NCBI GenBank assembly: GCA_964426735.1
Contig: CAYRRP010000002.1
Coordinates: 70,582 to 134,581, forward strand
Origin: an uncultured Candidatus Saccharibacteria bacterium
GTDB taxonomy: Bacteria; Patescibacteriota; Minisyncoccia; Phycocordibacterales; DATDWN01
Reading direction: 5' to 3'
DNA: 64,000 bases
Shown here: piece after piece, positions 8,443 through 47,996 of the stretch
Layout: each line of letters opens with the position of its first letter
Position numbering within the stretch: the stretch's first letter is position 1
Translations under genes and position numbers: made by a program
The notes under the pieces: generated by a model
Told to the model about the DNA's origin: nothing
What the model saw: only the letters and a program-made list of their open reading frames with translations
The model's database searches: none

Positions 8443-9624
8443 TTAGCGTATTGTTGCTCCAAAAGTTTCCTTGGTTGCTTCTTCAAGTTTTTTGTGGAGT
8501 TCGTCTACTTCAGTATTTGTGAGTGTGCGGTCAAGTGATCGGTAGATAATACGGAATGCATAGCTTACATTACCAATGCCAAACTTCGCATCGTTTTTGT
8601 AGGTATCAACAAGCGCCATTTCTTCCATCATAGAGCCTGCAATATCTCGAGCGAGGTCAAAGAAATCATTTGGTACGAATGTGTTTGGAACGATAAAAGA
8701 AATATCACGAACAACGGGAGGGTATTTGCTTACTTCAACAAACTTCGTGCCCAGTTTGAGCTGCTTCTTTACTCGCTCGTCAGTAGACCAGAGAAGGCGA
8801 ATATCAGGAAGCTCCATGCCAATCATTGCGAGTCGCTCAAGGCCGAAACCGAAAGCCCATCCGTTGTATCCTTCAAGACCCATCTTAGTGAGTACACTTT
8901 TCTTTGGCATACCGCCTCCCATAATCTCAATCCATTGGTTGTTGATTTCTACTTCTATTTGGAGTGATGGGTCGGTGTAAGGAAATGTGTCATCGAGGAA
9001 GCGATACTTTACGTCGGCACCAAATGTACTTTGTACGATTTCAGTGAGTACTTTTTTGAGCTCATCAAGTGGCATAATACCGAGTGAGTCTGGTTGTAAG
9101 AAAAGCCCACCCATCTGGTGGAAGATATTCATGTGTCGTCGGTCAATCTCGTCTTTTCGGTATACTTTTCCATAACACATCACACCGAGAGATTTACCTT
9201 CAGAGATTTTTTGCTTTATTTCTGGAAGATTGAGGTAGTAGTACCACATCACCGTATCGTGTGTACGAAGTACATGCGTATCATTTACATAGTATGTATC
9301 AGACTTGCTTCGGGCTACATGGTCTGGAGCAAAGTCAAAGAGATCAAAAAGTATTTCAGTTGAGAGGATTTCAGGGATATCGATATGATCAAAGTTTTTA
9401 AGAATAGGAAGCGAAGTTACTCGTTCTTTGATCTCGTGCAGGGGACTACCTTCAGTTCGCGAAAGATCAGGCATAGCAAGGTATTGTCGAATACGATTGG
9501 CTTCCGCATCAGTGCGCTTTTCAAGCTCTGTCCGCAAAGCATTTTCCTCATCTCTTGAGACTATATAGTCTTTTCGTGAAAGATCTCCGTTTGTATAAGT
9601 GTTTTCCATGGGTTTAGTGTACAA
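8443..9624 (-). CDS. pheS: Phenylalanine--tRNA ligase, monomeric (mitochondrial-like) architecture: PheS catalytic core fused to FDX-ACB anticodon-binding domain
   Basis: Class-II motif 2 VYRKDEIDRRHMNIFHQMGG and motif 3 GWAFGFGLERLAMIG match PheS. The C-terminal ~95 aa (KYPPVVRDISFIV...YAFRIIYRSLDRTLTNTEVDE) matches the B8/FDX-ACB domain normally found at the PheT C-terminus. Confidence 0.75.
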   Translation of the reverse strand: MYTKPMENTYTNGDLSRKDYIVSRDEENALRTELEKRTDAEANRIRQYLAMPDLSRTEGSPLHEIKERVTSLPILKNFDHIDIPEILSTEILFDLFDFAPDHVARSKSDTYYVNDTHVLRTHDTVMWYYYLNLPEIKQKISEGKSLGVMCYGKVYRKDEIDRRHMNIFHQMGGLFLQPDSLGIMPLDELKKVLTEIVQSTFGADVKYRFLDDTFPYTDPSLQIEVEINNQWIEIMGGGMPKKSVLTKMGLEGYNGWAFGFGLERLAMIGMELPDIRLLWSTDERVKKQLKLGTKFVEVSKYPPVVRDISFIVPNTFVPNDFFDLARDIAGSMMEEMALVDTYKNDAKFGIGNVSYAFRIIYRSLDRTLTNTEVDELHKKLEEATKETFGATIR

Positions 9625-9662: not shown

Positions 9663-9682
9663 AAGCGGCCCGGAGGCCGCTT
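9663..9682. terminator. GC hairpin (GCGGCC-CGGA-GGCCGC) downstream of minus-strand ORF 9681-9989
   Basis: Perfect 8-bp stem; no long U-tract. Confidence 0.4.
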
Positions 9683-9989
9683 AATCGAAGGTGAGATCAA
9701 TTTTATCGAGAACAAGACCTTGAACCCATCTGTTGTTGGTGTTTGGATACATGAATCCAGAAAGCACTGTTACTGGAGCCTGGCTTATAGAGTGGTCTAT
9801 GAGATGTTGGACCAAATTAGATTGGTTACCCCTTTTCGCATTTTTCCTATCAGACCAAGTTATCTCAGTGTTGGTAGGTAGACTAGCTTTTATATATGAT
9901 CCTTCTTCATTCGCTTCAAAATTGAGATAAATATTATTGTCGTAGTGAAGACGACAAGATAATTCTGCTTTCTGCGAGGCTAATTTCAT
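9681..9989 (-). CDS. Hypothetical protein (102 aa)
   Basis: ORF with a GGAG Shine-Dalgarno about 7 nt upstream of the ATG. No family recognised. Confidence 0.4.
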   Translation of the reverse strand: MKLASQKAELSCRLHYDNNIYLNFEANEEGSYIKASLPTNTEITWSDRKNAKRGNQSNLVQHLIDHSISQAPVTVLSGFMYPNTNNRWVQGLVLDKIDLTFD

Positions 9990-12623: not shown

Positions 12624-14378
12624 TTATGCTCTTTTTTTAATTTCTTCAACAAGGTTTGCAACAAATTCTTCTGCACTTTGTGCGCCAATCTGACCCTTAT
12701 CTCGATGCTCCACAGTCACGTTCTGACTTTCAATTTCTTTATCACCAAGTACAATCCAATACGGAATCTTTTCATTCTTTGCTTCGCGTACTTTCTTGCC
12801 GAGATTTAAGTCTCGGTCGTCAAAGTCAGAACGAATACCTGCCTCTACCAAAAGCTCATGCACTTTTTTTGCATAGTCATTGTGAGTATCTCGCACAGGA
12901 ATCACTTTCACTTGCACTGGCGCAAGCCAGAGAGGGAAGTTGCCGGCATAGTGTTCGATCAAGATTCCCATGAATCTTTCAAACGATCCAAAGATTGCTA
13001 CGTGAAGAACAACGACTTTATGTTTTTGACCGTCCTCACCAGTATAATTCATATCAAAGTTTTCTGGTTGGTTGAAGTCGAGCTGAATTGTGGTTAATTG
13101 CCATGTTCGGCCAATTGAGTCTTTAACTCGAATGTCGATTTTTGGACCGTAAAATGCTGCCTCACCTTCTTCAACACTGTATTCAACACCCCATTTTTTC
13201 ACTGCGTCGATCAAGATTGATTCAGCTCTTTCCCATACCTCATCTGCCCCAAAGTACGCCTCTTTGTTTTTAAGGTCTCGCACCGATATTTCAACTTTGT
13301 AGTCATTAAATCCAAAAAGACCGTACACTTTTTGCATAAGTCCAAAAATCATTTCAATTTCTGATTTGATCTGGTCAGGTCGGATAAAATGATGAGTGTC
13401 ATCTTGTGTTAGGTTCTTCACCCGCAGAAGACCAGAAAGCTCACCACTCTTTTCATTGCGATATACGGTTGTATTTTCAGCAATTCGAAGTGGAAGACTT
13501 CTGTAACTATGTTGTTCTGCGTTATATATTTCAAAATGATGAGGACAATTCATCGCTTTCATTACAAACTCATCACCATTTTCATCGGTCATGGTTGGCA
13601 TCATTGCGTCATATTTACCCATATGTCCGCTTCTCATGTAGAGTTCCTTTCGAGCGATATGGGGAATTGTAACAAAAGAATACCCAAGTTTTTCTTTTTC
13701 AGAGCGGATAAAGTTTTCAAGCTGTGTACGGATAATATTTCCTTTTGGCAGGTACATGGGCAGTCCTTTACCAACAAGTTCTGATACAGTAAACAGACCC
13801 ATCTCTTTTCCTATTTTCTTATGGTCCCGTTTCTCAGCTTCTTCTTTTTGGGTTACATATTTTTCTAAATCTTCTTTTGTCTCAAAAGCCAATCCATAAA
13901 TACGAGTAAGCATAATGTTTTTCTCATCTCCTTTCCAGTATGCACCAGCAAGGCGCTCCAACTTAAAGCTGTCTAGGGTCACCTTAGACATATCGTCGAC
14001 GTGTCCACCACGACAAAGATCGGTGAATTCAAAATGTCCTTCACCTGAAGTGTAAAGGGTGATCTTTTCTCCTTTTTCTATGATTCCAGAAATAAGCTCC
14101 AGTTTGTATGGATTTGTTGCAAACATTTTTTTTGCTTCACTTTCCGACACTTCTGTGCCAGTAAATCCTTTCCAGTGGGGAAGGATTTTTTTCATTTCTT
14201 TCTCAATCTTCTTCAAATCCTCTTCTTTAATAGGAGTTTTAAATTCAAAGTCGTAGTAAAAGCCGGTGTCAGTAGCTGGGCCGATAGTCGGTAAGGTATC
14301 AGGGTACAAATTTAAAACTGCTCTAGCGAGTAAATGGGCGAGTGAGTGTCGCTGGTTTTGTAATTTTTCAGTTTCCAT
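12624..14378 (-). CDS. thrS: Threonine--tRNA ligase (short form lacking N-terminal TGS domain)
   Basis: Editing-domain motif HSLAHLLARAV...GPATDTGFYYDF. Catalytic RDHKKIGKEMGLF motif and class-II motifs. Anticodon-binding C-terminus. Confidence 0.9.
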   Translation of the reverse strand: METEKLQNQRHSLAHLLARAVLNLYPDTLPTIGPATDTGFYYDFEFKTPIKEEDLKKIEKEMKKILPHWKGFTGTEVSESEAKKMFATNPYKLELISGIIEKGEKITLYTSGEGHFEFTDLCRGGHVDDMSKVTLDSFKLERLAGAYWKGDEKNIMLTRIYGLAFETKEDLEKYVTQKEEAEKRDHKKIGKEMGLFTVSELVGKGLPMYLPKGNIIRTQLENFIRSEKEKLGYSFVTIPHIARKELYMRSGHMGKYDAMMPTMTDENGDEFVMKAMNCPHHFEIYNAEQHSYRSLPLRIAENTTVYRNEKSGELSGLLRVKNLTQDDTHHFIRPDQIKSEIEMIFGLMQKVYGLFGFNDYKVEISVRDLKNKEAYFGADEVWERAESILIDAVKKWGVEYSVEEGEAAFYGPKIDIRVKDSIGRTWQLTTIQLDFNQPENFDMNYTGEDGQKHKVVVLHVAIFGSFERFMGILIEHYAGNFPLWLAPVQVKVIPVRDTHNDYAKKVHELLVEAGIRSDFDDRDLNLGKKVREAKNEKIPYWIVLGDKEIESQNVTVEHRDKGQIGAQSAEEFVANLVEEIKKRA

Positions 14379-14447
14379 ATGAGTATAGTACCACTAGAGG
14401 CTCCCCAAAGCCACTTTTTTGATTTATAAAAAGTTTCTTAAAAATGC

Positions 14448-14476
14448 TTGACAAAAATATATGATATGCTAATATA
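14448..14476 (+). promoter_or_regulatory. Sigma70-type promoter TTGACA-16-TAATAT driving an orphan short transcript
   Basis: Consensus -35 and near-consensus -10 with optimal spacing. No CDS lies downstream. Confidence 0.55.
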
Positions 14477-14482
14477 TATGTC

Positions 14483-14695
14483 AGATCTGTGCGGAATTGC
14501 AAGCTTTCTTGTGCCAAGCAAGAAAGTCAAGGCGAAACTGCACTGTGGGGGGTGATATTGGGATTAAGTTCCCGCGCTCCCCCCACTCGAATTTTTTTCG
14601 TTTAGAAGAGAGGTCGTCAATTGAATGTGACAACACGACTTCTCCCTCCGAACCTATAAACCCCCAGGTGTATGTACACCTGGGGTATTTTTTTA
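14483..14695 (+). ncRNA. Candidate small non-coding RNA (~210 nt), promoter-to-terminator unit
   Basis: Bounded upstream by the TTGACA-16-TAATAT promoter. Bounded downstream by intrinsic terminator CCCCAGGTGT-ATGT-ACACCTGGGG plus a T8 run (14660-14695). Internal hairpins: CTTTCTTG/CAAGAAAG and GTGGGGGG/CCCCCCAC. No ORF with an RBS. Confidence 0.4.
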
Positions 14696-14722
14696 GTTAT
14701 CAACAGGTCTGCATTTATAGAG

Positions 14723-14751
14723 TTGACACAGAAAGTAGAGGGTGTATTATA
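14723..14751 (+). promoter_or_regulatory. Second sigma70-type promoter TTGACA-16-TATTAT
   Basis: Consensus -35 and good -10. Followed by a hairpin-rich, ORF-poor segment. Confidence 0.5.
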
Positions 14752-14757
14752 TAAGTG

Positions 14758-15000
14758 TCGGTTGAGTGGTCGGTGGTGTTTGGGAGGTCGAGACGCTCGC
14801 GTTTCCCTCCCAAATACTTACCGGACACACTTCCAACATTGTCCTTTCGTTGAGCAAAGCTCAACACCCCCGATCCGAAGCTTTGCTTCTGATCACCCTG
14901 TTCTTTCCGAAGATTTGTTTACAAATCTTCACCCGTTTCCCGACTCATCTTGAGTCACACCGCCTTCCTGAGCTTTTGCTCCGGAGGTTTTTTGTTTTTA
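14758..15000 (+). ncRNA. Candidate structured RNA or long structured 5' leader (serial perfect hairpins)
   Basis: Hairpins include TTTGGGAGG/CCTCCCAAA (9 bp), TTGAGC/GCTCAA, GAAGC/GCTTC and GAAGATTTG/CAAATCTTC (9 bp). Ends in a weak hairpin plus T-run near 14975-15000. No convincing ORF. Confidence 0.3.
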
Positions 15001-15249
15001 TAACTTGCTCTTTTTTATAGTAGGTGTATCATTTATCTGTAGCGCAGTTTGGCTACCGCGGAGGGGAGTGAGTAAGCTGTATCAGTATTCCACCCTCTGC
15101 ATCATGTTCCTTCTTTTTGTTTTGCCAGCTGGGAGCAGTACTCGATTTTTTCAGAGGCCGCTTCCACTACATCTCCTCGTATATTGTTACGAAGGAGTTT
15201 TTTTATTGCTTTTTTAAAAAAATATTGTTAGGTTATTCCCAGAAAGGAA

Positions 15250-15606
15250 GTGAAAGTGGCAACAACTTTAACTTATCGCCAAGTAGGCGATGTGACAGTG
15301 GTGGATGTTACAGGAAAGATTATCCTCGGCGAAGGTTCAATGATGCTTCGCGATGGGATCAGGGAACTTATTCGTAGAGGTGAGAAAAAGATTATCCTCA
15401 ATTTCTGTGAGGTTACCTATATCGACAACTCTGGTCTGGGTGAGTTGGTATCTGGTTTTACCAGTGTCTCGAATGCGGGAGGAACTCTCAAACTTCTGAA
15501 CCTTACCAAGCGTGTCCAGGATCTTTTGCAGATAACCAAACTGTACACAATTTTTGAAGTTTTTGATGACGAGGAAACAGCTCTCATCAGCTTCAATCGG
15601 CAATAA
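15250..15606 (+). CDS. Anti-sigma factor antagonist (STAS domain, SpoIIAA-like)
   Basis: GTG start with an AGGAAG RBS. Motif CEVTYIDNSGLGELVSGF and overall STAS pattern. Confidence 0.75.
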   Translation: MKVATTLTYRQVGDVTVVDVTGKIILGEGSMMLRDGIRELIRRGEKKIILNFCEVTYIDNSGLGELVSGFTSVSNAGGTLKLLNLTKRVQDLLQITKLYTIFEVFDDEETALISFNRQ

Positions 15607-15619
15607 CGAATCTCAACCA

Positions 15620-15646
15620 AAAAGCTCGGGGTAACCCGAGCTTTTC
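15620..15646. terminator. Intrinsic terminator AAAAGCTCGGG-GTAA-CCCGAGCTTTT
   Basis: Perfect 11-bp stem flanked by A/T runs. Lies after the STAS gene. Confidence 0.8.
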
Positions 15647-15720
15647 GCGTATTTGTATTTTACAGTAAACGAGAATTGTAATTTAAAACAACATTACGCA
15701 GCATCATTTCACCACCTTTT

Positions 15721-15901
15721 ACTTCTAGAATAATTTTCAAAAGCATTCGCAGACTTTTGTTAGAGATGCCAGCACTTTCTGCTAGACCGTGAGCACCAAG
15801 TCCTGTACTCAGGACCGAAGCGAAGCGAGTTTGCGGAAGGTCAAAGAAAGTGCGCGACATCTCTCAAAAGGCGAGGACGATTTTTAAAATTATTCTAGAA
15901 G
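15721..15901. repeat. Perfect 17-bp inverted repeats (ACTTCTAGAATAATTTT) flanking a 147-bp spacer between the STAS gene and dnaE 3' end
   Basis: Plus-strand copy at 15721-15737 and reverse-complement copy at 15885-15901. The core TTCTAGAA is palindromic. A third 13/15 copy is at 22443-22457. Confidence 0.6.
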
Positions 15902-20131: not shown

Positions 20132-21019
20132 ATGGCAAACAGGCACCTTTCCAGATCAATAGTTCTTCAGTCACTCTTTGAGTGGGATTTTAGAAACGAA
20201 AATTTCGAAGAAGCTTTGGAAGTGTTTAAACGTAACGTCGATGAATTTGCTCCCGGTCAGGGAGATTTGGCGTTTATGGAAGGGCTCATGCGAGGTGTTC
20301 TTGAAAAACAAAAAGATCTCGACCTCATTATCGAAAAAGCTGCTCCGGACTGGCCGATCGACAAAATCTCTATTATGGATAGAAATATCCTTCGTCAAGG
20401 TCTCTATGAGCTCCTCTTTGCTGACCGCTCACAGGTACCTCCAAAGGTTGCGATCAATGAAGCAATCGAGCTTGCTAAATCTTTCGGCTCTGATACTTCA
20501 AGCAAGTTTGTAAACGGTGTGCTTGGTGCGGTTTATAAAGAGATCGGAGAACCAGGAAAAGAAGAAACCACAAAAGATAAAAAGAAAATTGGTGGACCGA
20601 TCCCAACAGAATACCTTGGAGGTGCGGTAGTGTATGCAAAAGTCGGTGAAGATATTTATGTAGCACTCGTGCATGATGTATTCGGTCGCTGGACTCTTTC
20701 AAAGGGGCATATTGCGGGGGGCGATGACCAGCCTGCAGAAGTGGCTCAGGCTATCCAAGAAGAGCTCTCTCTACCTGTCACAATCAAAGACAAACTTGGA
20801 ACAAATGAGTATGCAACCTATCATCCAGAGAAAGGAAAGATAAAGAAAAATGTAACCTACTACCTCGCCGAAGCTCCATTTGAAGATATAAAACTCGTAA
20901 ACTCAGGAGGACTCGATGATGCTCGATGGTTTAAATTGGGGGATATATTGGATTTGAATTTTTATAATGATATTCTTCCTCTTATCACAAAAGCAGTAAA
21001 TCTGTTAGTAGCTAAGTAG
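20132..21019 (+). CDS. nusB: Transcription antitermination factor NusB fused to a C-terminal Nudix-fold domain (degenerate Nudix box)
   Basis: The N-terminal 140 aa match NusB (RNILRQGLYELLF...KVAINEAIELAKSFGSDTSSKFVNGVLGAV). The C-terminal 150 aa show a Nudix-fold pattern (VVYAKVGEDIYVALVHDVFGRWTLSKGHIAGGDDQPAEVAQAIQEELSLPV). The RE of the REx2EE box is not conserved. Confidence 0.75.
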   Translation: MANRHLSRSIVLQSLFEWDFRNENFEEALEVFKRNVDEFAPGQGDLAFMEGLMRGVLEKQKDLDLIIEKAAPDWPIDKISIMDRNILRQGLYELLFADRSQVPPKVAINEAIELAKSFGSDTSSKFVNGVLGAVYKEIGEPGKEETTKDKKKIGGPIPTEYLGGAVVYAKVGEDIYVALVHDVFGRWTLSKGHIAGGDDQPAEVAQAIQEELSLPVTIKDKLGTNEYATYHPEKGKIKKNVTYYLAEAPFEDIKLVNSGGLDDARWFKLGDILDLNFYNDILPLITKAVNLLVAK

Positions 21020-23230: not shown

Positions 23231-25486
23231 ATGTACTTAAAATCGATTGAGATTGTTGGTTTCAAATCTTTCGCTAAAAAGAGCGATCTTACTTTTGCAT
23301 CAAAAGTTTCTTCGATTGTTGGTCCGAATGGTTCAGGAAAATCAAATATCGCTGAAGCATTTCGTTTTGTGCTCGGAGAACAATCGATGAAGTCGATGCG
23401 AGGAAAGAAAGGTGAAGATATGATCTGGAATGGTTCTTCGGAAATGCCGAAAGCGGGGAAAGCATCAGTGAAAGTGGTTTTTGATAACTCATCTCGTTTT
23501 CTTCCACTCGATTTTTCAGAGGTGTCACTAGAGCGTGTGGTACACCGAGACTCAGTCAATGAATATTTTATCAATGGCTCTCAGGTGCGTCTCAAAGATG
23601 TGATCGAGCTTCTCGCGGGTGCTCATATTGGTGCATCAGGACATCACATCATTTCTCAAGGTGAAGCAGATCGTATATTGAATGCTTCGGTACGTGAACG
23701 AAAAGGAATGATCGAGGAGGCACTTGGTCTTAAAATCTATCAATACAAAAAAGTAGAGAGTATTAAAAAACTCGATAAGACTCGAGAAAATATTGCACAA
23801 GTGGAATCTTTAAGGCGAGAAATCGCTCCGCATATTCGTTATCTTAAAAAACAGGTTGAAAAAGTAGAAAAAGCAATTGAATTTAAACATGAACTCCTCG
23901 GACTTTCTTTAGAGTATCTTAAGCGTGAAGATGACTATATCAAACGCATTCATGCAGAGATTGCTTCACAAAAAAATCCTCTCGAAGCTGAATATCGTCA
24001 TGTACAAGATCAGTTGTATAAGATAAAAGAGCAGTTAAAAAATGCAGAGCATAAAGATGCAAAAAGTGCTGAGCTTGTTGTGCTTGAGGAACAGATACAG
24101 TCTGTGAGACAGAAAAAAGATGCACTGGTACGAGATATGGGACGTATCGAAGGAGAGATTTCATCTCAAATGCGCCTCATTAAAAAACAAGAAGAGCTTG
24201 CACGGAGTAATGAATGGAAGACAGTGCAGCTCCGAGCGGTAGAAGACCTCCACTCACAAGTCTTTGAACTTATGGGTCATGTAGAGCATGCCGTAGACCC
24301 ACAGACAGTAAAATCTTCAATACAGGCAATTCGTGATCTTCTTAAAGCGTTTGTGGAAATGCATCGAGATACAGTAGATACTACTCTCATCAAAGAAGCA
24401 GAATTTGAAATACAAAAATTAAGTGAAGAGCGTACTCATATAGAGCTACGAATCGCTGAGGTCACTCAGGAAGAGAAAGTTGCGCATACCGCGTATGAAT
24501 CTCTCAAACGTTCAATTGAAAGAGAAAAAGATACAAATCGAGATGCGGAGAAGGAACTTTTCATTCTCATGTCTAAAGAGCAGAATGTGTTGGGTGAACT
24601 TCGCACACTTGAATCAAAAGAAGCTCAAGCACGAGTACTTGAAGAAGATTTTAAGCGAGAAGTAACAGAACTCTCAATGTTTTTAGGGAGGGATGTTCTT
24701 GCGTTTGGAGAAAAAGAGTATTCTCTGATAGAAGGTAGAGAGGTGCAAGAAGAGCGAAGACGAAAAATAGAAAAAATAAAAATTAGACTCGAGGATTCAG
24801 GTGGAATCGGAGGAGGTGAGACAGTGAAAGAATATGAAGAAGCGCTCGAACGAGATCAGTTTCTCGAACGAGAACTCGCTGACCTTTCACATACTGCAGA
24901 ATCCCTCGCAAGTCTTATTGGCGAGCTGGATGCAAAAATCGCATCTGAATTTACGGTAGGTGTGGAGAAAATCAACCGACAGTTTAGTGAATACTTTGCG
25001 ATGATGTTTGGAGGAGGAGAAGCAAAGCTCTCTGTTATCAGAGAACAAAGGGTGAAAAAGAAATCAGACCTCGACAACCTTTCTCCTGAGCCGGGCTCGA
25101 GGGAAGAAGAGGTGGATGAAGAAGAGGGTGAAGCGGGAATTGATATTGAGGTGTCGCTCCCACGTAAGAAAGTGAAAGGACTCATTATGCTCTCAGGAGG
25201 TGAGCGAGCGCTTACGTCTATTGCACTTCTTTTTGCTATCTCTCAAGTAAATCCTCCACCATTTATTATTCTCGATGAAACAGATGCAGCACTTGATGAA
25301 GCAAATTCTCGCAAGTATGGAGATATGATTGAAACGCTTTCAAAGTTCTCTCAACTTATTGTGATTACTCACAACCGAGAAACTATGTCTCGTGCCGGAG
25401 CGCTTTACGGAGTGACGATGGGGCAGGGTGGGGTTTCAAAATTACTTACTGTCTCCTTTGAAGACGCTGTGGCAGTGGCTAAGTAA
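23231..25486 (+). CDS. smc: SMC-family chromosome partition ATPase, short hinge-less form (751 aa)
   Basis: N-terminus MYLKSIEIVGFKSFA...GPNGSGKSN (Walker A). C-terminus LSGGERALTSIALLFAI...ILDETDAALD (signature plus Walker B) and the QGGVSKL terminal motif. Long coiled-coil middle with no Gly-rich hinge and no CxxC hook. Start set at the SMC-like Met, not the upstream in-frame extension. Confidence 0.8.
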   Translation: MYLKSIEIVGFKSFAKKSDLTFASKVSSIVGPNGSGKSNIAEAFRFVLGEQSMKSMRGKKGEDMIWNGSSEMPKAGKASVKVVFDNSSRFLPLDFSEVSLERVVHRDSVNEYFINGSQVRLKDVIELLAGAHIGASGHHIISQGEADRILNASVRERKGMIEEALGLKIYQYKKVESIKKLDKTRENIAQVESLRREIAPHIRYLKKQVEKVEKAIEFKHELLGLSLEYLKREDDYIKRIHAEIASQKNPLEAEYRHVQDQLYKIKEQLKNAEHKDAKSAELVVLEEQIQSVRQKKDALVRDMGRIEGEISSQMRLIKKQEELARSNEWKTVQLRAVEDLHSQVFELMGHVEHAVDPQTVKSSIQAIRDLLKAFVEMHRDTVDTTLIKEAEFEIQKLSEERTHIELRIAEVTQEEKVAHTAYESLKRSIEREKDTNRDAEKELFILMSKEQNVLGELRTLESKEAQARVLEEDFKREVTELSMFLGRDVLAFGEKEYSLIEGREVQEERRRKIEKIKIRLEDSGGIGGGETVKEYEEALERDQFLERELADLSHTAESLASLIGELDAKIASEFTVGVEKINRQFSEYFAMMFGGGEAKLSVIREQRVKKKSDLDNLSPEPGSREEEVDEEEGEAGIDIEVSLPRKKVKGLIMLSGGERALTSIALLFAISQVNPPPFIILDETDAALDEANSRKYGDMIETLSKFSQLIVITHNRETMSRAGALYGVTMGQGGVSKLLTVSFEDAVAVAK

Positions 25487-25496
25487 ATATAAAACT

Positions 25497-26123
25497 ATGC
25501 TCGTTTTTATAGATGATTCAGGGGATGCAGGATTTAAGATCGACAAGGGTTCAAGTCGATTTTTTGTAATTGCACTTGTTATTTTTGATGATGAATTAGA
25601 AGCAGAAAAAACAGCCATTGCTATTAAAGAGTTACGAAGAGAATTAGATTTTCCTGCAGATGTTGAATTTAAATTTGCCAAATCAAAACCTTCAGTTCGC
25701 GAGAAATTTTTACAAGCGGTCACACCTTTTAATTTTAGAATAAGATCCTTGGTTGTCGATAAAAAGAAGATATATAGTCCTGAACTACAAAATAATAAAA
25801 ATTCATTTTATAGTTACATTATCAAAATGGTTCTAAAGCATAGTGATGGTTTTATCTCCAATGCGAAATTAAAAATTGACGGTAGTGGAGATCGTATCTT
25901 TCGAAAGAATTTCCTCACTTATTTAAGAAAAGAGCTAAATAACACTGATTATAAGATAATGGCTCAGTGTAGGCTTGTAGATTCGAAAAGTAATGTACTG
26001 ATACAAATGGCCGATATGATAGCGGGGACTATTCGCAGATCATATGATGAAGGCAAAAAAGATGGAGTTCAATTAAAGAAAATTATAAAGAAGCATATTC
26101 AAAACGAATGGGAATTTAAATAG
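25497..26123 (+). CDS. DUF3800-like protein (RNase H-like fold family); AT-rich accessory gene
   Basis: Starts MLVFIDDSGDAG, the typical DUF3800 N-terminus, 11 nt after the smc stop. A late motif LIQMADMIAGTI is present. Local GC is markedly lower than in smc. Confidence 0.5.
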   Translation: MLVFIDDSGDAGFKIDKGSSRFFVIALVIFDDELEAEKTAIAIKELRRELDFPADVEFKFAKSKPSVREKFLQAVTPFNFRIRSLVVDKKKIYSPELQNNKNSFYSYIIKMVLKHSDGFISNAKLKIDGSGDRIFRKNFLTYLRKELNNTDYKIMAQCRLVDSKSNVLIQMADMIAGTIRRSYDEGKKDGVQLKKIIKKHIQNEWEFK

Positions 26124-26130
26124 GTATAAG

Positions 26131-26156
26131 AAAAAACCCTTTCGGGCTTTTTCCAA
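26131..26156 (+). terminator. Weak intrinsic terminator AAAAAACCC-TTTC-GGGCTTTTT
   Basis: Short GC stem with flanking A/T runs after the DUF3800-like gene. Confidence 0.4.
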
Positions 26157-26379
26157 CCACGCTCCTAGACTAGGTGTCCTAGCCACGCCACCGTCCGGTG
26201 ACTGTTTGGAATACAGGTTTGTGTACATACACAATACCAGGTTTTAGATGATTAGGCAATGAAGAAGTGGATAACTCAGTCGTCGACTATTTGTCGACAA
26301 CTGAACCTATAAATATTTGAGGTTGTGATATTTTGTCATGGGTTGAAGTTAGAGGCTTTAAATGAGAAAATAAACCATT

Positions 26380-41090: not shown

Positions 41091-44000
41091 GTGCACAAAA
41101 ACATGTCGCAACACACAACGCACAACGGTCCACGACCTAAAAAGTTTTTCGGACGGTTCAAGAAACCGCTTGCAGAAACACCAAACTTCGTTGAGCCACA
41201 GCTCGACTCATTTAAATGGTTGATAGAAGAAGGTCTTAAAGAGGTCTTTAAGGAATTCTCTTCTATTAAAGATTACTCAGAGAAAAAATTCCAGCTTGAT
41301 TTTACAGGCTTCGAATTAGCGTTACCTAAGTATGATGAATATCATGCAAAGGAAAACAAACTTTCATACGAAGCTCCACTTAAAGTAAAAGTGAAGCTCA
41401 AGAATCATATCGTTGGTTCAGAAAAAGAGCAGGAAATCTTCATGGCTGATTTCCCACTTATGACATCTCACGGTACCTTTATTATCTCAGGTATTGAGCG
41501 TGTTATCGTACCTCAGCTTGCTCGTTCATATGGAGTATTCTTTACTGCAAATGAAGTGCGCGGACGCCGACTCTTCGGTGCAAAGGTAATCCCAGGACGA
41601 GGAGCATGGGTAGAAGTAGAGTCAGATGCAGACGGAGTGATCTATGTACGTATTGACCGAAAACGAAAGTTCCCGGTATCAACACTTCTTCGAGTATTTG
41701 GTGCTCACACTGATTCTGATATCAACAAACTTTTTGCTGATAATGAATTTGCTAAACAATCTATTGCTAAAACAATTGCAAAAGATACCGCAAAGACAAT
41801 CGAAGATGCATACATCGAAATTCACAAACGACTTCGAGATGGAGACTTGGCAACTGCTGAAAACGCAAAGGAATTTGTCGATGCACTTTTCAACGAAGAG
41901 CGATACGACCTTTCACCAGTAGGACGTTTCCGATTCAACCAGCGATTTGGTAAAAAACTCGATGAAAAAGAAAAAGCACGAAAAACTCTCTCTATAGATG
42001 ATATTGCGACTATCGTCACTCATATTGCCCACCTCAATAACACCCCACACTCACAGCCAGATGATATCGATCACCTTGGTTCACGACGTGTACGATTTGT
42101 TGGAGAGCTCTTCCAGCAGAAAATCCGAGTTGGTATGGCTCAGATCAAACGAAACATTCAAAACCGAATGTCTACTATTGATACTGATGTGACATTGCCA
42201 GTTCAGTTTATCTCACCGAAACCACTTCAAGCGAGAATCAAAGAATTCTTCACCACAAACCAGTTGTCACAATTCATGCTCCAGGAAAACCCACTTGCAG
42301 AAGTGGAGCATTTGCGAACACTCTCTGCGCTTGGTCCGGGAGGTTTGAACCGTTCTCGAGCAGGGTATGAAGTACGTGACGTACACCACTCTCACTACGG
42401 ACGACTTTGTCCGATCCATACACCAGAAGGTCCAAACATTGGGTTGGTACTTCGTCTTTCAGTGTATGCTCGATTGAATCACTTTGGAATGATTGAGACT
42501 CCGTATGCAAAAGTAAAGAATGGAAAAATTACTGCAGATATTGCATATCTTAATGCGTCTGAAGAAGAAAATTTTGCTATTGCTCACGCCGCAACACGAT
42601 ATGATAAAGAAGGAAATATTCTTGAAGATGTTGTAGAAGTGCGTATCAACGGTGAACCATCAACAATTGATAAAACAAAAGTTGATTATATTGACGTTGC
42701 GACAAACCAGGCGTTTTCTATTGCAACAAACATGATTCCGTTTGTAAACCACAACGACTCTACTCGAGCGCTGATGGGATCAAACATGCAGAAACAAGCA
42801 ACACCGTGCGTGGTACCAGAAGCTCCACTTGTAGGAACAGGTATCGAAGAGTCAGCGGTGAAAGATACAGGACGACTCGTACTCGCGACTGAAGCAGGAA
42901 CTGTCTCATATGTAGATGGAGGTTTGATTAAAGTAAAAAGCGAAAAAGGAAAAGAGACTGAATACAAGTTGGTAAAATTCTCACGAACAAACGGCTTTAC
43001 CGCATTCCATCAGCGACCTTCAGTCAATGTAGGTGATACGGTAAAGAAAGGTAGTGTACTTGCAGATACCTCAGCATCAGAACATGGACAAATGGCAATC
43101 GGTCAAAATATCTTGATTGCATTCATGTCATGGTCTGGTTCAAACTATGAAGACGCGATTATCCTTTCAGAACGACTTGTAAAGAAATCTAAATTTACTT
43201 CAATTCATATTGAAGAGTTTGTAGTAAATGTGCGAGATACAAAACTTGGTCCAGAAGTAACAACTTGCGATATTCCAAACGTAGGTGAAAGTAAACTCAA
43301 AAACTTGGCAGAAGACGGTATTGTACGAGTCGGTGCTGAAGTGCGACCGGGAGATATTTTGGTTGGAAAAGTAACTCCAAAAGGAGAAACACAACTTACT
43401 CCAGAAGAGCGTCTCCTTCGATCACTTTTCGGTGAAAAGGCAAAAGATGTAAAAGATACATCAAAACGAATGGAAGGTGGTAAACGAGGGCGAGTAATCA
43501 ATGTACAAGTATTCTCACGAGAAAAAGGAGATAAACTTGATTCAGGTATCATCAAACGAATCCATATTGAAGTTGCAGAACTTCGAAATGTATCTGTAGG
43601 TGACAAGCTCGCGGGACGACACGGAAACAAAGGAGTTATTTCAAAGATTCTTCCAGAAGAAGATATGCCGTATATGGCAAATGGTACTCCAATCGACATG
43701 ATTCTTACACCACTCGGTGTGCCATCACGTATGAACTTGGGACAGATTCTTGAGCTTCACTTGGGTCTTGCAGCAAATACATTAAACTATCAGGCAATCG
43801 TACCTCCATTTGCAGGTGCGACCGATACTGAAATTAAAGATGAACTTGTAAAAGCAGGCTTCCCAGCTACCGGAAAGATTCCATTGTATGATGGACGAAC
43901 AGGAGAAAAATTTGAACAAGATATTGCGGTTGGATATATGTATATCTTGAAACTTCACCACATGGTTGAAGATAAGATTCACATGCGATCAATCGGGCCA

Positions 44001-44297
44001 TACTCTCTTATTACACAGCAGCCACTTGGAGGTAAAGCTCAAAGTGGAGGACAGCGATTTGGAGAAATGGAAGTGTGGGCACTCTTGGGTCACGGTGTGG
44101 CACATACATTGCAGGAGATTCTTACTATCAAATCAGACGATATTCTTGGACGATCAGCTGCATTTGATGCGATTGTAAAAGGTGAACCAATCACACAGCT
44201 TGGCACCCCTGCATCATTCAACGTACTTCTTAATAACCTTCGAGGACTCGCGCTTGATGTGGATGTAGAAGAGTCTCATGACGAAGAAAGCAAATAA
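41091..44297 (+). CDS. rpoB: DNA-directed RNA polymerase subunit beta
   Basis: Full set of conserved beta regions, including the rifampicin cluster FGEMEVWALLGHGVAH. GTG at 41091 or ATG at 41103 as start. Confidence 0.95.
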   Translation: MHKNMSQHTTHNGPRPKKFFGRFKKPLAETPNFVEPQLDSFKWLIEEGLKEVFKEFSSIKDYSEKKFQLDFTGFELALPKYDEYHAKENKLSYEAPLKVKVKLKNHIVGSEKEQEIFMADFPLMTSHGTFIISGIERVIVPQLARSYGVFFTANEVRGRRLFGAKVIPGRGAWVEVESDADGVIYVRIDRKRKFPVSTLLRVFGAHTDSDINKLFADNEFAKQSIAKTIAKDTAKTIEDAYIEIHKRLRDGDLATAENAKEFVDALFNEERYDLSPVGRFRFNQRFGKKLDEKEKARKTLSIDDIATIVTHIAHLNNTPHSQPDDIDHLGSRRVRFVGELFQQKIRVGMAQIKRNIQNRMSTIDTDVTLPVQFISPKPLQARIKEFFTTNQLSQFMLQENPLAEVEHLRTLSALGPGGLNRSRAGYEVRDVHHSHYGRLCPIHTPEGPNIGLVLRLSVYARLNHFGMIETPYAKVKNGKITADIAYLNASEEENFAIAHAATRYDKEGNILEDVVEVRINGEPSTIDKTKVDYIDVATNQAFSIATNMIPFVNHNDSTRALMGSNMQKQATPCVVPEAPLVGTGIEESAVKDTGRLVLATEAGTVSYVDGGLIKVKSEKGKETEYKLVKFSRTNGFTAFHQRPSVNVGDTVKKGSVLADTSASEHGQMAIGQNILIAFMSWSGSNYEDAIILSERLVKKSKFTSIHIEEFVVNVRDTKLGPEVTTCDIPNVGESKLKNLAEDGIVRVGAEVRPGDILVGKVTPKGETQLTPEERLLRSLFGEKAKDVKDTSKRMEGGKRGRVINVQVFSREKGDKLDSGIIKRIHIEVAELRNVSVGDKLAGRHGNKGVISKILPEEDMPYMANGTPIDMILTPLGVPSRMNLGQILELHLGLAANTLNYQAIVPPFAGATDTEIKDELVKAGFPATGKIPLYDGRTGEKFEQDIAVGYMYILKLHHMVEDKIHMRSIGPYSLITQQPLGGKAQSGGQRFGEMEVWALLGHGVAHTLQEILTIKSDDILGRSAAFDAIVKGEPITQLGTPASFNVLLNNLRGLALDVDVEESHDEESK

Positions 44298-44324
44298 TTG
44301 GTCGACTAATACATCTTCAAACAT

Positions 44325-47300
44325 ATGAAAACACAATCTAAATCAAACTCAACAAACTTCGACATGATAACCCTTCGACTCGCGTCACCAGAGCGAATCT
44401 TAGAGTGGTCATTTGGAGAAATTACAAAACCGGAAACGATCAACTACCGAACACAACGTTCAGAAAAGAATGGTCTCTTCGATGAGAAAATCTTTGGTCC
44501 AGATAAGGACTACGAATGTTATTGTGGAAAATATCGAGGTATTCGATATAAAGGTATTGTGTGTGAAAAATGTGGAGTAGAAATCACTCGATCGATTGTT
44601 CGCCGTGAACGAATGGGACATATCGAGCTCGCGACTCCGGTATCACATATTTGGTTCCTCAAATCAATGCCATCACGTATTGCGATGATTTTGGGTATCC
44701 CAACAATGGATATTGAAAAAGTTATTTATTTCGCAGGATACATCGTTACGTCAGTATCAGAAGAAGAAAGAGCTCGATACTTGAAAGATCTTGATTCAGA
44801 ATACAAATCAAAAGTAAAATCTCTTCAGGATGAAAAGACTAAAGAAGCAGTGAAAGAGATGTATCTTGAGACAAAACGAGATATTGAAAGTATTACAGAA
44901 GGCAAAGTACTTGATGAGGTTGAGTATCATAACTTTGGTATGAAATACGGTACATTGTTTGAAGCAGGTATCGGTGCTGAAGCGATTTTCAACATTTTCA
45001 AAAAACTCGACCTTTCTAAACTGCTTGCATCACTTCATGCGGAAGCAGAAAAAGCGTCAGCACTTGAAATCGGTAAAATCAACAAGCGAATTAGTACTAT
45101 TTCAGCAATGGTAAATTCAGGTGTGCGTCCAGAGTGGATGTTCCTCACACATATCCCTGTGATACCTCCTGCACTTCGACCAATGGTTCCATTGGATGGA
45201 GGACGATATGCAACATCTGATGTAAACGATTTGTATCGACGAGTGATCAACCGAAATAATCGATTGAAGAAACTGAAGGAGATTCATGCGCCTGATGTTA
45301 TCTTGCGAAACGAAAAACGTATTTTGCAAGAAGCAGTTGATGCATTGATCGATAACTCAATCCGACACGGATCTGCATCAGGTGGTGCAACATCACTTGC
45401 TCAGAGACGAGCACTCAAATCGATTGCGGATAACCTTAAGGGTAAGCGAGGTATTTTCCGACAGAACCTTCTCGGTAAACGTGTTGACTATTCAGGACGA
45501 TCAGTGATTGTGGTGGGACCTGAGCTCAATATCAATCAATGTGGTCTTCCAAAACACATGGCACTTGAGCTTTTCAAACCATTTGTGATTTCACAGCTCT
45601 TGAAACAAGAACTCGCATACAATATTCGAGGTGCAAGTAAACTTATCGAAGATGGAATCCCTGAAGTATGGGCGATTCTTGAAGATGTAACTAAAAATAA
45701 ATACGTACTATTGAACCGTGCACCAACATTGCACCGACTTGGTATCCAGGCATTCCAGCCAGTATTGATCGAAGGAAACGCTATTCAGCTTCACCCGCTT
45801 GTATGTTCAGCGTTCAACGCGGACTTCGACGGAGACCAGATGGCGGTACACGTTCCACTTTCAGATGAAGCTCAAGCAGAAGCACGAGAGATCATGGCAG
45901 CGGATAAGAACATCCTCAAACCAGGAAGTGGTGATCCGACTGTATCAGCAAAAATGCTTGATATTGTACTTGGTGCATACTGGATGACAAAAGAGATGAC
46001 TGGAGAGAAAGGTGAAGGGATGGTGTTCCAGAGTCCAAACAGTGCAATTACAGCATACGATTTCGGTGCGGTATCATTCCGAGCAAAAATAAAAGTACTT
46101 CCAACTGATAAAGAAAAATACGCACAGTTTGATGGAAAAGTGTTTGAAACAACTGTAGGAAGATTGTTGTTCAACAGTGTGTTACCAAAAGACTATCCAT
46201 TCGTAAATGGTGAAATGGTGCAAAAGAAAATAACCGCATTGATCGATGATCTTATTGAAAAATACGGTATTGAAAACGTACCTGCAATTATCGATAAAAT
46301 TAAGAAGTTTGGTTTCAAATACGCAACACATTCTGGTGTGACATGGGGAATTGATGATGTGGTGATTCCTTCAGGTAAACAAGCAATTGTTGAGGCTGCT
46401 CAAACAGAAATCTATACTATGATGGAGCATTTCAATGACGGTCTTATTTCAAAAGAAGAGCGTCTTCGAAAAGCGACAGAAGTATGGCACAAAGCAAAAG
46501 ATGATGTAGGTAAGTTGATCCCAGCATCAACCCCTGCACATGGATCAGTTTCTGATATGGTGCTTTCAGGAGCGCGAGGTTCTTGGGGTAACATCACACA
46601 GATGGCAGGTATGAAAGGTTTGATTACAAACACTTCAGGAGAAACTATTGAATTCCCAATTAAGTCATGTATGAAAGAGGGACTTACACCGATCGAATAC
46701 TTTACGACTACTCACGGATCTCGAAAAGGTTTGACTGACACAGCGCTTAACACTGCGAAAGCTGGATACCTGACTCGAAAACTTTTCGTTGTAGCACAAG
46801 ATATTGTGGTGACTGAAGAAGATTGTGGTACTACCGAAGGTATTGTAATGGGAGAAGAGTCAGGTGCAATCGATTTGTCACTTGCAAAACATATCAAAGG
46901 ACGCTTTACTGCAAAAGATGTTATTGGTCCAGATGGAAAAGTATTGTTCCCACAAGGTCATCTTATCTCAAAGAAAGATGCGACTATGCTCGAACAGCTC
47001 GGCGTGAAAAATGTAACCGTACGATCACCGCTCGCATGTAAAACACTCGATGGTGTGTGTGTGAAATGTTACGGAACTGATCTTGGTAAAAACAAAGTTG
47101 TCGAGATTGGTGAAGCAGTAGGAACTGTTGCAGGACAGGCGATCGGAGAACCAGGAACACAGCTTACAATGCGTACATTCCACTCAGGAGGTACTGCGTC
47201 AGTTGGTGGAGACATTACTTCAGGTCTTCCACGTGTTGAAGAAATCTTTGAGAAACGACAGCCGAAAAATCCAGCAATTGTTTCAACTGTTGGAGGTATC

Positions 47301-47996
47301 GTTTCAGATATCAAGATGAACAACAAAGAGAAGACTATTACAATCACTCCAGATCTTGAATATAAAACTAAATTGAAAGGAGAGATTGAGTATTCTGTAA
47401 GTTTGAACCGAATGATTTTGGTGAAGGTTGGTGAGCGAGTAGAAAAAGGAGATATTCTGACTGATGGTTCTGCAAATATCGATGAACTCTTCCGATATGC
47501 AGGAAAAGATAAAACCGTAAACTACATTATTTCTGAAATCAATAAGCCATATGATCTTCAGGGTGCAGCAGTATCTCGAAAACATATTGAACTTATCGTT
47601 CGACAAATGTTTGCACGAAAACGAGTAAAAGATGCAGGTGATACGATCTTTACCCGAGGTGATTTGGTAGACAATGCATTCTTGGCTCAAGAAAACATGC
47701 GCATGAAAGCTGAAGGTAAAGCAGAAGCAAAAGCCGATTCAGTGGTAATGGGTATTTCAGATGTCTCTCTTTCTCGCAAAAGTTTCTTGGCTGCGGCTTC
47801 ATTCCAGCATACGACTCGTATTTTGATCACCAGTGCAATCAAAGGTACAACAGACAAACTTGCTGGTCTTATGGAAAACGTGATTATCGGTAAACTTATT
47901 CCAGCAGGAACAGGATTTAAAGGAAGTAAAAAAGCTCAGATTATACAAGATGTACGTGATGCACGAGATGCAGAACGTGGTTTCCAAGGGGAATAA
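44325..47996 (+). CDS. rpoC: DNA-directed RNA polymerase subunit beta'
   Basis: Zn-binding CxxC...CxxC near the N-terminus. Catalytic NADFDGDQM motif. Trigger loop and bridge helix. Confidence 0.95.

What the first reader, a model, noticed from the sequence alone, without database searches (positions are those of the whole stretch)
8443..9624. Monomeric, mitochondrial-type phenylalanyl-tRNA synthetase (PheS core + PheT-type FDX-ACB domain in one 393-aa chain)
Bacterial PheRS is normally an (alpha-beta)2 heterotetramer. Here a single ORF carries the PheS class-II motifs 2 and 3 (VYRKDEIDRRHMNIFHQMGG and GWAFGFGLERLAMIG). These are followed by an approximately 95-residue C-terminal domain matching the ferredoxin-fold anticodon-binding (B8) domain that normally sits at the C-terminus of the beta subunit. 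That is the architecture of mitochondrial FARS2. No pheT is adjacent. In bacteria this single-chain form is unusual and may reflect genome reduction.
Basis: partly seen in the sequence, partly recalled or inferred. Interest (0 to 1): 0.6.

Follow-up and report, generated by a model that had tools for sequence, protein, structure and literature searches.

The report
Single-chain phenylalanyl-tRNA synthetase in Paceibacteria
This gene encodes a compact one-chain phenylalanyl-tRNA synthetase built like the mitochondrial enzyme; it is the standard form across a large group of tiny-genome bacteria (Paceibacteria), not a one-off, and it carries an unusual change in its amino-acid pocket.

Summary
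The ORF at 8443-9624 (-) has a PheS-type class II core (Pfam E 2e-51) fused to an FDX-ACB anticodon-binding domain (E 6e-22). The likely start is the ATG at 9609, giving 388 aa. The best solved match by sequence and by predicted fold is human mitochondrial PheRS. No pheS or pheT is in the 64-kb window.

The gene is not a rarity. At least 555 species-level genomes carry a relative, and the named lineages are almost all Parcubacteria/Paceibacteria.

Catalytic residues are invariant in 320 family members. The four residues that read G34 of tRNA-Phe in the human enzyme are conserved. dN/dS against a 93%-identical relative is 0.03. The best reading is a working, editing-free, single-chain housekeeping PheRS.

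Three points differ from the mitochondrial enzyme:
- It misses the curated cut-offs of pheS_mito, pheS and SrmL.
- It lacks the mitochondrial insertion.
- The acidic residue in FHQxEG/FHQxDG of nearly all other PheRS examined is Gly here, and only alongside a lineage-specific Tyr in FPYT.

In eight related genomes a stand-alone PheT-B2-like tRNA-binding gene sits directly upstream.

Whole-genome absence of pheS/pheT, the monomeric state and enzyme activity were not tested. Nine searches found no paper describing this enzyme in bacteria.

The parts
8443..9609 (-). Single-chain PheRS coding sequence: 388 aa from the ATG at 9609. The mechanical ORF runs from the TTG at 9624 (393 aa), and residue numbers in this report use that 393-aa frame. 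The stop codon is 8443-8445.
   Evidence: ORF list. A public gene call of 388 aa is 100% identical. The N-termini of homologues align with the ATG. Sequence read directly. dN/dS is 0.03 against the orthologue in L005.
8761..9459 (-). Class II catalytic core of PheS type (residues 56-288).
   Evidence: Pfam PF01409 tRNA-synt_2d, E 2.2e-51. It aligns with E. coli PheS through that protein's last residues. The catalytic positions are invariant in 320 family members.
9106..9165 (-). Motif 2, VYRKDEIDRRHMNIFHQMGG (residues 154-173). It includes Gly172 (codon 9109-9111) at the position of the acidic residue found in nearly all other PheRS examined (human E159).
   Evidence: The role of human E159 comes from PMC3275996.
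8977..8979 (-). Tyr216 codon in FPYTDPS. Nearly all other PheRS examined have FPFT here. Gly172 occurs only together with this Tyr.
8818..8862 (-). Motif 3, GWAFGFGLERLAMIG (residues 255-269). Ala257 aligns with E. coli PheS Ala294. Arg264 is the motif-3 arginine.
   Evidence: The E. coli residue number is from general knowledge.
8446..8730 (-). Ferredoxin-fold anticodon-binding domain (residues 299-393), homologous to domain B8 of PheT. It carries D340, Y342, S354 and R393, which align with human D364, F366, S375 and R414, the residues that read G34.
   Evidence: Pfam PF03147, E 5.6e-22. TIGR00472 pheT_bact matches at profile positions 692-798. Residue mapping comes from the HMMER alignment and PMC7540514. 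Conservation is 317-319 of 320 at D340, S354 and R393, and Tyr or Phe in all 320 at position 342.
8410..8441 (.). Perfect palindromic hairpin flanked by an A-run and a T-run, between the convergent PheRS and PEGA-domain genes. It is a likely two-way intrinsic terminator.
   Evidence: Read directly from the sequence. The consensus scanner did not list it.
9663..9682 (-). GC-rich terminator-like hairpin immediately after the upstream 102-aa ORF. It suggests the PheRS gene is transcribed on its own.
   Evidence: Sequence.

Best explanation
The gene encodes the housekeeping phenylalanyl-tRNA synthetase of a Paceibacteria (Parcubacteria, CPR) bacterium, as a single polypeptide.

The PheS-type class II core activates phenylalanine with ATP and transfers it to tRNA-Phe. 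The fused FDX-ACB domain is the equivalent of domain B8 at the C-terminus of PheT. It binds the anticodon and reads G34 with an Asp/Tyr/Ser/Arg set, as in human mitochondrial PheRS.

All other beta-subunit domains are absent, including the B3/B4 editing site. Accuracy must therefore rest on the synthetic site alone.

By analogy with the human enzyme, the anticodon-binding domain packs on the core in a closed resting state and swings open on tRNA binding.

The architecture, the conserved residues, purifying selection and the lineage-wide distribution are shown here. Enzyme activity, the monomeric state, the conformational switch and being the only PheRS of the cell are inferred.
For: Architecture and fold:
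- Both domains score far above their Pfam cut-offs.
- The best solved relatives are six human mitochondrial PheRS sequence variants, at E 1e-57 to 2e-56.
- The AF2 model has pLDDT 89.5. It superposes on the closed human structure 3CMQ at TM 0.74, better than on the tRNA-bound open form 3TUP at 0.57.

Conserved functional residues in 320 family members:
- H102, R105, R156, D158, H164, F168, Q170, F214, T217, E233, A257, G259, G261 and R264 are invariant.
- The G34-reading residues are D340 (318), Y or F at 342 (320), S354 (319) and R393 (317). In the human enzyme D364G abolishes activity (PMC7540514).

Selection and distribution:
- dN/dS is 0.03 against a 93%-identical orthologue.
- At least 555 species-representative genomes carry a relative. 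Lineage names in the titles include Zambryski-, Kaiser-, Nomura-, Giovannoni-, Jorgensen-, Taylor- and Harrison-bacteria, and Wolfe-, Staskawicz-, Nealson- and Portnoy-bacteria.

Absence of canonical genes nearby and context:
- There is no canonical pheS or pheT in the 64-kb window.
- There is none in 1.26 Mb of sequence held, which is mostly the flanks of the gene in 80 related genomes.
- The window is core chromosome: gyrB, thrS, dnaE, DNA-directed RNA polymerase subunits (41091-47996, assigned by position and size only, not scanned), dnaG, rpoD and hisS.
Against: - Whole genomes could not be searched, so a canonical pheS-pheT elsewhere is not excluded. The 1.26 Mb of flanks would be expected to hold only about 1-2 pheT genes by chance (my rough estimate), so finding none is weak evidence.
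- The protein misses every curated equivalog cut-off: pheS_mito 241 against 258, SrmL 220 against 300, pheS 152 against 237.
- NCBI names a close relative only 'tRNA ligase subunit PheS family protein'.
- The acidic residue after FHQx lines the amino-acid pocket in the human enzyme (E159, PMC3275996). It is Gly here.
- No tRNA-Phe gene was available to check identity elements.
Confidence: 0.8

Rival explanations
1. The protein is an accessory PheS-like ligase, a 'mystery ligase' paralogue that coexists with an ordinary (alpha-beta)2 PheRS encoded elsewhere in the genome. It would do something other than bulk Phe-tRNA-Phe synthesis.
For: NCBIfam holds a curated family of exactly this kind, NF051887 'PheS-related mystery ligase SrmL'. 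Its profile covers both domains and matches the query at 220 bits. The query fails the pheS_mito cut-off. Absence of pheS/pheT from the whole genome was not tested.
Against: - The SrmL cut-off of 300 bits is missed by 80 bits, and pheS_mito scores higher.
- None of the ten representative relatives tested passes the SrmL cut-off.
- The G34-reading residues and all ATP- and Phe-site residues except position 172 are conserved.
- The gene is present in at least 555 reduced genomes under strong purifying selection. A second PheRS-like system would be costly there.
- No canonical subunit appears in 1.26 Mb of flanks.
Confidence: 0.12
2. The protein is the cell's tRNA-Phe synthetase, but with altered amino-acid selectivity. 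The Gly172/Tyr216 pocket would change which aromatic amino acids are accepted or rejected. For example, it could give better rejection of meta-tyrosine or tyrosine in the absence of editing, or acceptance of an analogue.
For: - Human E159 hydrogen-bonds the meta-OH of bound m-Tyr (PMC3275996). That carboxylate is missing here.
- In 320 relatives the position is Gly in 183, Asp in 137 and never Glu.
- Gly occurs only with Tyr216: 183 of 183 with Tyr, and 0 of 111 with Phe216.
- Positions 237 and 240 in the GGGMP loop shift together with it.
Against: - Position 172 switches between Gly and Asp at least five times on a rough tree of close relatives. This looks more like tolerance than a new specificity.
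- The rest of the pocket (F214, T217, A257) is unchanged.
- No structure with ligand and no assay is available.
Confidence: 0.06
3. The gene is a eukaryotic (mitochondrial) contaminant, a recent transfer, or a decaying pseudogene.
For: The best solved match is a human mitochondrial protein.
Against: - The gene sits between bacterial gyrB and glycosyltransferase genes on a contig of typical CPR content.
- Identity to the human enzyme is only about 32%.
- Thousands of CPR orthologues exist at 57-96% identity.
- The frame is intact and dN/dS is 0.03.
Confidence: 0.01

Closest known systems
Mitochondrial phenylalanyl-tRNA synthetase (human FARS2, PDB 3CMQ and 3TUP; NCBIfam TIGR00469 pheS_mito)
   Same: - One chain with a PheS class II core, joined after the complete PheS C-terminal tail to an FDX-ACB (B8) domain.
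- No editing domain and no N-terminal coiled coil.
- The same four G34-reading residues.
- The predicted fold matches the closed human structure (TM 0.74).
   Different: - It is encoded in a bacterial chromosome as the apparent cytoplasmic enzyme.
- It scores 241 bits against the 258-bit cut-off.
- It lacks the roughly 25-40-residue insertion after motif 2.
- It has a roughly 8-10-residue insertion after the LRTH motif instead.
- It has Gly in place of E159 and Tyr in FPYT.
- On a rough NJ tree it forms a clade outside the mitochondrial-type sequences.
Bacterial (alpha-beta)2 PheRS: PheS (TIGR00468) plus PheT (TIGR00472)
   Same: The catalytic core is homologous to PheS, with 29% identity to E. 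coli PheS through that protein's last residue. The C-terminal domain is homologous to PheT residues of about 690-795.
   Different: - It has no PheS N-terminal coiled coil.
- It has none of the PheT domains B1 to B7, so no B3/B4 editing site and no B5.
- No partner gene lies next to it.
- Both cut-offs are missed.
PheS-related mystery ligase SrmL (NCBIfam NF051887)
   Same: It is a bacterial single-chain PheS-like protein whose 349-position profile spans both the core and the C-terminal domain. The query matches profile positions 34-347.
   Different: - The score is 220 bits against a cut-off of 300.
- None of ten representative relatives passes that cut-off.
- No source-given name seen among relatives contains SrmL.
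- I found no paper on SrmL.
Free-standing tRNA-binding OB-fold proteins (Pfam tRNA_bind PF01588; Trbp111, CsaA and the PheT B2 domain)
   Same: In eight related genomes a 134-142-aa tRNA_bind protein is encoded directly upstream of the single-chain PheRS gene. It is 32-38% identical to E. coli PheT residues of about 36-153.
   Different: It is not present in this window. It was seen in only one subclade, in which the few lineage-specific source names are Doudnabacteria. Its functional link to the synthetase rests on adjacency alone.

Membership tests
Monomeric mitochondrial-type PheRS (TIGR00469 pheS_mito) | PheS-type class II catalytic core with motifs 2 and 3 | tested here: met
   PF01409 at E 2.2e-51, residues 56-288. 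The motifs were read in the translation.
Monomeric mitochondrial-type PheRS (TIGR00469 pheS_mito) | FDX-ACB anticodon-binding domain fused to the C-terminus of the same chain | tested here: met
   PF03147 at E 5.6e-22, residues 299-393, full profile length.
Monomeric mitochondrial-type PheRS (TIGR00469 pheS_mito) | Curated whole-protein score cut-off of the equivalog model | tested here: not met
   241.2 bits against a cut-off of 258.35. The nearest 50%-cluster representative, P0127, does pass at 264.3 bits.
Monomeric mitochondrial-type PheRS (TIGR00469 pheS_mito) | G34-reading residues of the anticodon-binding domain (human D364, F366, S375, R414) | tested here: met
   D340, Y342, S354 and R393 by HMMER alignment, with residue roles from PMC7540514. 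D340, S354 and R393 are kept in 317-319 of 320 relatives, and position 342 is Tyr or Phe in all 320.
Monomeric mitochondrial-type PheRS (TIGR00469 pheS_mito) | Three-dimensional similarity to solved mitochondrial PheRS | tested here: met
   The AF2 model has pLDDT 89.5. Foldseek gives TM 0.73-0.75 and rmsd 3.3-3.6 to 3CMQ, 5MGH and 8P8X.
Monomeric mitochondrial-type PheRS (TIGR00469 pheS_mito) | Acidic residue after FHQx in motif 2 (human E159), which lines the amino-acid pocket | tested here: not met
   FHQMGG, with Gly172. In 320 relatives the position is Gly in 183, Asp in 137 and Glu in none.
Monomeric mitochondrial-type PheRS (TIGR00469 pheS_mito) | Active as a monomer; charges tRNA-Phe with Phe | not testable with these tools
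   This needs purified protein, size-exclusion or light scattering, and aminoacylation assays.
Bacterial PheRS alpha subunit (TIGR00468 pheS) | Curated score cut-off; N-terminal coiled coil; partner pheT gene | tested here: not met
   151.6 bits against a cut-off of 237.45. The N-terminal region does not align with E. coli PheS residues 1-85. There is no pheT in the window.
Bacterial PheRS beta subunit (TIGR00472 pheT_bact) | Domains B1-B8, including B3_4 editing and B5 | tested here: not met
   Only profile positions 692-798 (B8) match, at 64.7 bits against a cut-off of 402.65.
PheS-related mystery ligase SrmL (NF051887) | Curated score cut-off of the equivalog model | tested here: not met
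   220.4 bits against a cut-off of 300.
Sole PheRS of the organism (replacement of pheS-pheT) | No canonical pheS or pheT anywhere in the genome | not testable with these tools
   Only the 64-kb window and flanks of up to 10 kb in 80 relatives could be read, and none was found there.

The most novel reading that the evidence does not exclude
Paceibacteria as a whole have discarded the heterotetrameric, editing-competent bacterial PheRS. They translate with an editing-free single chain. Its phenylalanine pocket was remodelled in two steps: first Phe to Tyr in FPFT, and then loss of the motif-2 carboxylate that nearly all other PheRS examined keep. The bacterial clade also shares a single fusion origin with the mitochondrial enzyme. 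If so, the 'mitochondrial' monomeric PheRS was not a eukaryotic invention but came from, or was exchanged with, such bacteria.
Probability: 0.25. Interest if true: 0.8.

Novelty: new variant of a known kind. Interest (0 to 1): 0.58.

Why it matters
[quoted passage not shown] It calls the mitochondrial enzyme 'the only known example' of a monomeric synthetase with a class II catalytic module (PMC3275996).

A large bacterial radiation that runs on a one-chain, editing-free PheRS would bear on several questions:
- It would revise the textbook statement above.
- It would give a natural test case for how translation accuracy is kept without the B3/B4 editing site.
- It bears on where the mitochondrial enzyme came from.
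- It affects genome-completeness marker sets that, as far as I recall, count pheS and pheT. This is my own knowledge and was not checked here.
- It offers a compact bacterial PheRS scaffold for engineering.

The Gly172/Tyr216 pair is a concrete hypothesis about the pocket that can be tested by mutation.

Tried and rejected
1. Literature. Nine searches combined PheRS, phenylalanyl-tRNA synthetase, pheS, pheT, SrmL, monomeric and FDX-ACB with CPR, Patescibacteria, Parcubacteria and metagenom*. None found a paper on a bacterial single-chain PheRS. The nearest is Mukai 2017 (PMC5370408), which notes only that many CPR PheRS-beta proteins lack the B2 domain.

2. The source contig. The exact-protein look-up returned only short Logan contigs (at most 5.7 kb), not the 172.5-kb NCBI contig. 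The rest of the genome could not be read.

3. Canonical PheS or PheT of Paceibacteria in the protein database. I had no seed sequence from that lineage, and only the best 120 hits are listed. The tRNA_bind search returned only stand-alone proteins of 123-173 aa. Name look-ups of PheS-like representatives without the C-terminal domain returned no organism names.

4. The 102-aa ORF upstream (9681-9989) as a possible partner subunit. It has no Pfam hit. It is absent from the 93%-identical relative L005. It is unrelated to the tRNA_bind proteins. It was rejected as a partner.

5. tRNA-Phe identity elements. There is no tRNA gene in the window and no tRNA-Phe among 103 tRNAs in the 84 sequences held.

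6. The 'Oligoflexia' relative P0130 as evidence for spread outside the CPR. Its named neighbours are all Parcubacteria lineages, so the label is probably a binning or transfer artefact.

7. Rfam at a permissive threshold on the two apparently non-coding stretches (3900-6000 and 14300-15900) gave nothing.

Full report
**What is there**

The minus-strand ORF 8443-9624 encodes 393 aa from a TTG start. Public gene calls (388 aa, 100% identical) and the N-termini of homologues indicate the ATG at 9609 as the real start.

Pfam finds the PheS-type class II core at residues 56-288 (tRNA-synt_2d, E 2.2e-51). It finds a complete FDX-ACB domain at residues 299-393 (E 5.6e-22).

An alignment with E. coli PheS shows that the core runs through the very last residues of PheS. 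E. coli ...DLRSFFENDLRFLKQFK aligns with ...DIRLLWSTDERVKKQLK here. A short linker and the B8-type domain follow. An in-frame loss of PheT domains B1-B7 in a pheS-pheT operon would produce this arrangement. That is my inference.

The gene looks monocistronic. A GC-rich hairpin follows the upstream ORF (9663-9682). A perfect A/T-flanked palindrome (8410-8441) separates the gene from the convergent PEGA-domain gene. A weak TTGCAT-17-TACACT match ends 6 nt before the ATG, which would give a leaderless transcript. This was read by eye and the scanner does not support it.

**Context**

The window has about 40% GC. It carries core genes of a reduced bacterial genome: an AcrB-type transporter, GT2, gyrB, thrS, dnaE, a nusB-NUDIX fusion, rnc, smc, rnr, rpsP, trmD, a PIF1 helicase, dnaG, rpoD, an AddA-like helicase, uppP, hisS, truB and typA. 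The two large ORFs at 41091-47996 are taken to be the RNA polymerase subunits from position and size only.

There is no second PheS-like gene and no PheT domain in the window. No tRNA gene is found in 64 kb.

**Closest solved structure**

By sequence the best solved relatives are six human mitochondrial PheRS sequence variants (E 1e-57 to 2e-56). Bacterial PheS chains follow at 1e-29 and weaker. PheT chains match only at their C-terminal roughly 100 residues.

An AlphaFold2 model built on 40 homologues has mean pLDDT 89.5 and pTM 0.86. Foldseek places it on the closed human structures (3CMQ, 5MGH, 8P8X) at TM 0.73-0.75 over about 386 columns. It fits the open, tRNA-bound 3TUP less well, at TM 0.57.

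**Does it look like a working PheRS?**

The residues that read G34 of tRNA-Phe in the human enzyme are D364, F366, S375 and R414. D364G abolishes activity (PMC7540514). In the HMMER alignment these correspond to D340, Y342, S354 and the C-terminal R393.

In an alignment of 320 family members:
- D340, S354 and R393 are kept in 318, 319 and 317 sequences, and position 342 is Tyr or Phe in all 320.
- H102, R105, R156, D158, H164, F168, Q170, F214, T217, E233, A257, G259, G261 and R264 are invariant.

The correspondence of these catalytic positions to named T. thermophilus and E. coli residues rests on my knowledge of those enzymes.

Against the orthologue in L005 (93.8% amino-acid identity) dN/dS is 0.03.

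**How common is it?**

The word-indexed search found more than 6,700 related proteins. All of the best 120 have the same two domains and lengths of 343-451 aa, most of them 375-400. Their names include Parcubacteria, Paceibacterota, Minisyncoccota, Zambryskibacteria and Patescibacteria.

Lineage names in the record titles include Zambryski-, Kaiser-, Nomura-, Giovannoni-, Jorgensen-, Taylor- and Harrison-bacteria. One hit is a complete 808-kb chromosome. About half of the records carry the submitter label 'uncultured Candidatus Saccharibacteria'. Single records labelled Binatia (L055) and Oligoflexia (P0130) also occur. I treat these labels as unreliable, because every record with a lineage-specific CPR name is a Parcubacteria lineage or Doudnabacteria.

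A second subfamily is about 40% identical to the query and has FHQIDG and FPFT. Its named members come from Wolfe-, Staskawicz-, Nealson- and Portnoy-bacteria.

At 50% clustering the whole single-chain superfamily, mitochondrial forms included, is small: 204 clusters at E 1e-30 or better. So the form is the norm in this class, not a curiosity of one genome.

**What differs from the known kinds**

1. Curated models. The scores are pheS_mito 241 against 258, SrmL 220 against 300 and pheS 152 against 237. All are missed.

2. Insertions. The mitochondrial insertion after motif 2 is absent. A roughly 8-10-residue insertion follows the LRTH motif instead.

3. Tree position. A rough NJ tree rooted on E. 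coli PheS puts the query with P0127, P0130 and P0137 in a clade outside all the other single-chain sequences. Those of the others that were tested score above the pheS_mito cut-off. This tree is crude and has a single outgroup.

4. The amino-acid pocket.
   - Nearly every other representative in which the motif was found has FHQxEG or FHQxDG. The query's subfamily has FHQMGG.
   - In human mitochondrial PheRS this glutamate (E159) lines the amino-acid pocket and hydrogen-bonds the meta-OH of bound m-Tyr (PMC3275996).
   - Across 320 relatives position 172 is Gly in 183, Asp in 137 and never Glu.
   - Gly occurs only when position 216 is Tyr, as in FPYTDPS. It is found in 183 of 183 such cases and in 0 of 111 with Phe.
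   - On a rough tree there is one Phe-to-Tyr change and at least five Gly/Asp switches within the Tyr background.
   - I read this as Tyr216 making the carboxylate dispensable. Whether it changes discrimination against Tyr or m-Tyr, which matters for an enzyme with no editing site, is open.

**A possible helper in relatives**

A tblastn search with E. coli PheT against 1.26 Mb held, mostly flanks of the gene in 80 related genomes, found no B1, B3_4, B5 or B6-7 domain anywhere.

It did find, in eight loci, a stand-alone ORF of about 140 aa directly upstream of the synthetase gene. This ORF matches PheT residues of about 36-153, the B2 OB-fold, and Pfam confirms tRNA_bind at E 1e-15 to 1e-18 in the four ORFs scanned.

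The family has about 600 members. The few lineage-specific source names are Doudnabacteria, and JGI labels them 'PheRS beta chain'. It is absent from this window. It may act in trans to hold tRNA. Only the adjacency is shown.

**What is not shown**

Whole-genome absence of pheS and pheT, the monomeric state and catalytic activity are not shown. The empty flanks are weak evidence, because by my rough estimate only about 1-2 pheT genes would be expected there by chance. Mukai 2017 shows that some CPR lineages do have PheRS-beta (PMC5370408). Any replacement is therefore specific to part of the radiation.

**Verdict**

The gene is best described as the lineage-typical, bacterial, editing-free single-chain PheRS of Paceibacteria. 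It is a new variant of the mitochondrial kind and, as far as nine literature searches show, it has not been described in the papers available. My confidence is 0.8 that it is the working housekeeping PheRS. The interest score is 0.58.

Noticed in passing
L031, L055, L062, L065, L066, L068, L070, L083 (for example L065:9516-9932): A stand-alone 134-142-aa tRNA_bind (PheT-B2-like OB-fold) gene lies directly upstream of the single-chain PheRS gene in eight related genomes. The family has about 600 members. The few lineage-specific source names are Doudnabacteria, and JGI labels them 'PheRS beta chain'.
   Followed up: partly
window 26151-26219 (-) next to 25428-26123 (+): A DUF3800-IX RNA motif (Rfam RF02968, 48 bits against a gathering score of 36.8) lies immediately downstream of a DUF3800 protein gene, on the opposite strand.
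   Followed up: no
window 14379-15250: About 870 nt upstream of thrS have no convincing ORF and no Rfam match even at a permissive threshold. This is an unusually long apparently non-coding stretch for a reduced genome.
   Followed up: partly
window 1-64000; loci L005-L084: ARAGORN finds no tRNA gene in the 64-kb window. In 41 of the 84 sequences held, a tRNA-Thr(UGU) lies within about 3.3 kb of the PheRS gene, mostly convergent and just downstream. In L005, the 93%-identical relative, the region downstream of the gene differs from the window.
   Followed up: partly
window 9681-9989 (-): A 102-aa ORF with no Pfam match lies between gyrB and the PheRS gene and is followed by its own terminator-like hairpin. 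It is present in the three near-identical Logan contigs, but the region is missing from L005. It looks like a strain-level insertion.
   Followed up: partly
window 4001-6000: There is a local composition anomaly: GC 0.44 against about 0.40, and AT skew of +0.15. The stretch has only unannotatable ORFs (4426-4860, 4811-5185) and no Rfam match.
   Followed up: partly
window 20132-21019 (+): NusB is fused to a C-terminal NUDIX hydrolase domain in one 295-aa ORF.
   Followed up: no
P0130 (NCBI MBX7144632.1, labelled Oligoflexia); L055 (labelled Candidatus Binatia): Single-chain PheRS genes of the Paceibacteria type occur in MAGs labelled as non-CPR phyla. The named neighbours of P0130 are all Parcubacteria lineages, so mis-binning or transfer is likely.
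   Followed up: partly
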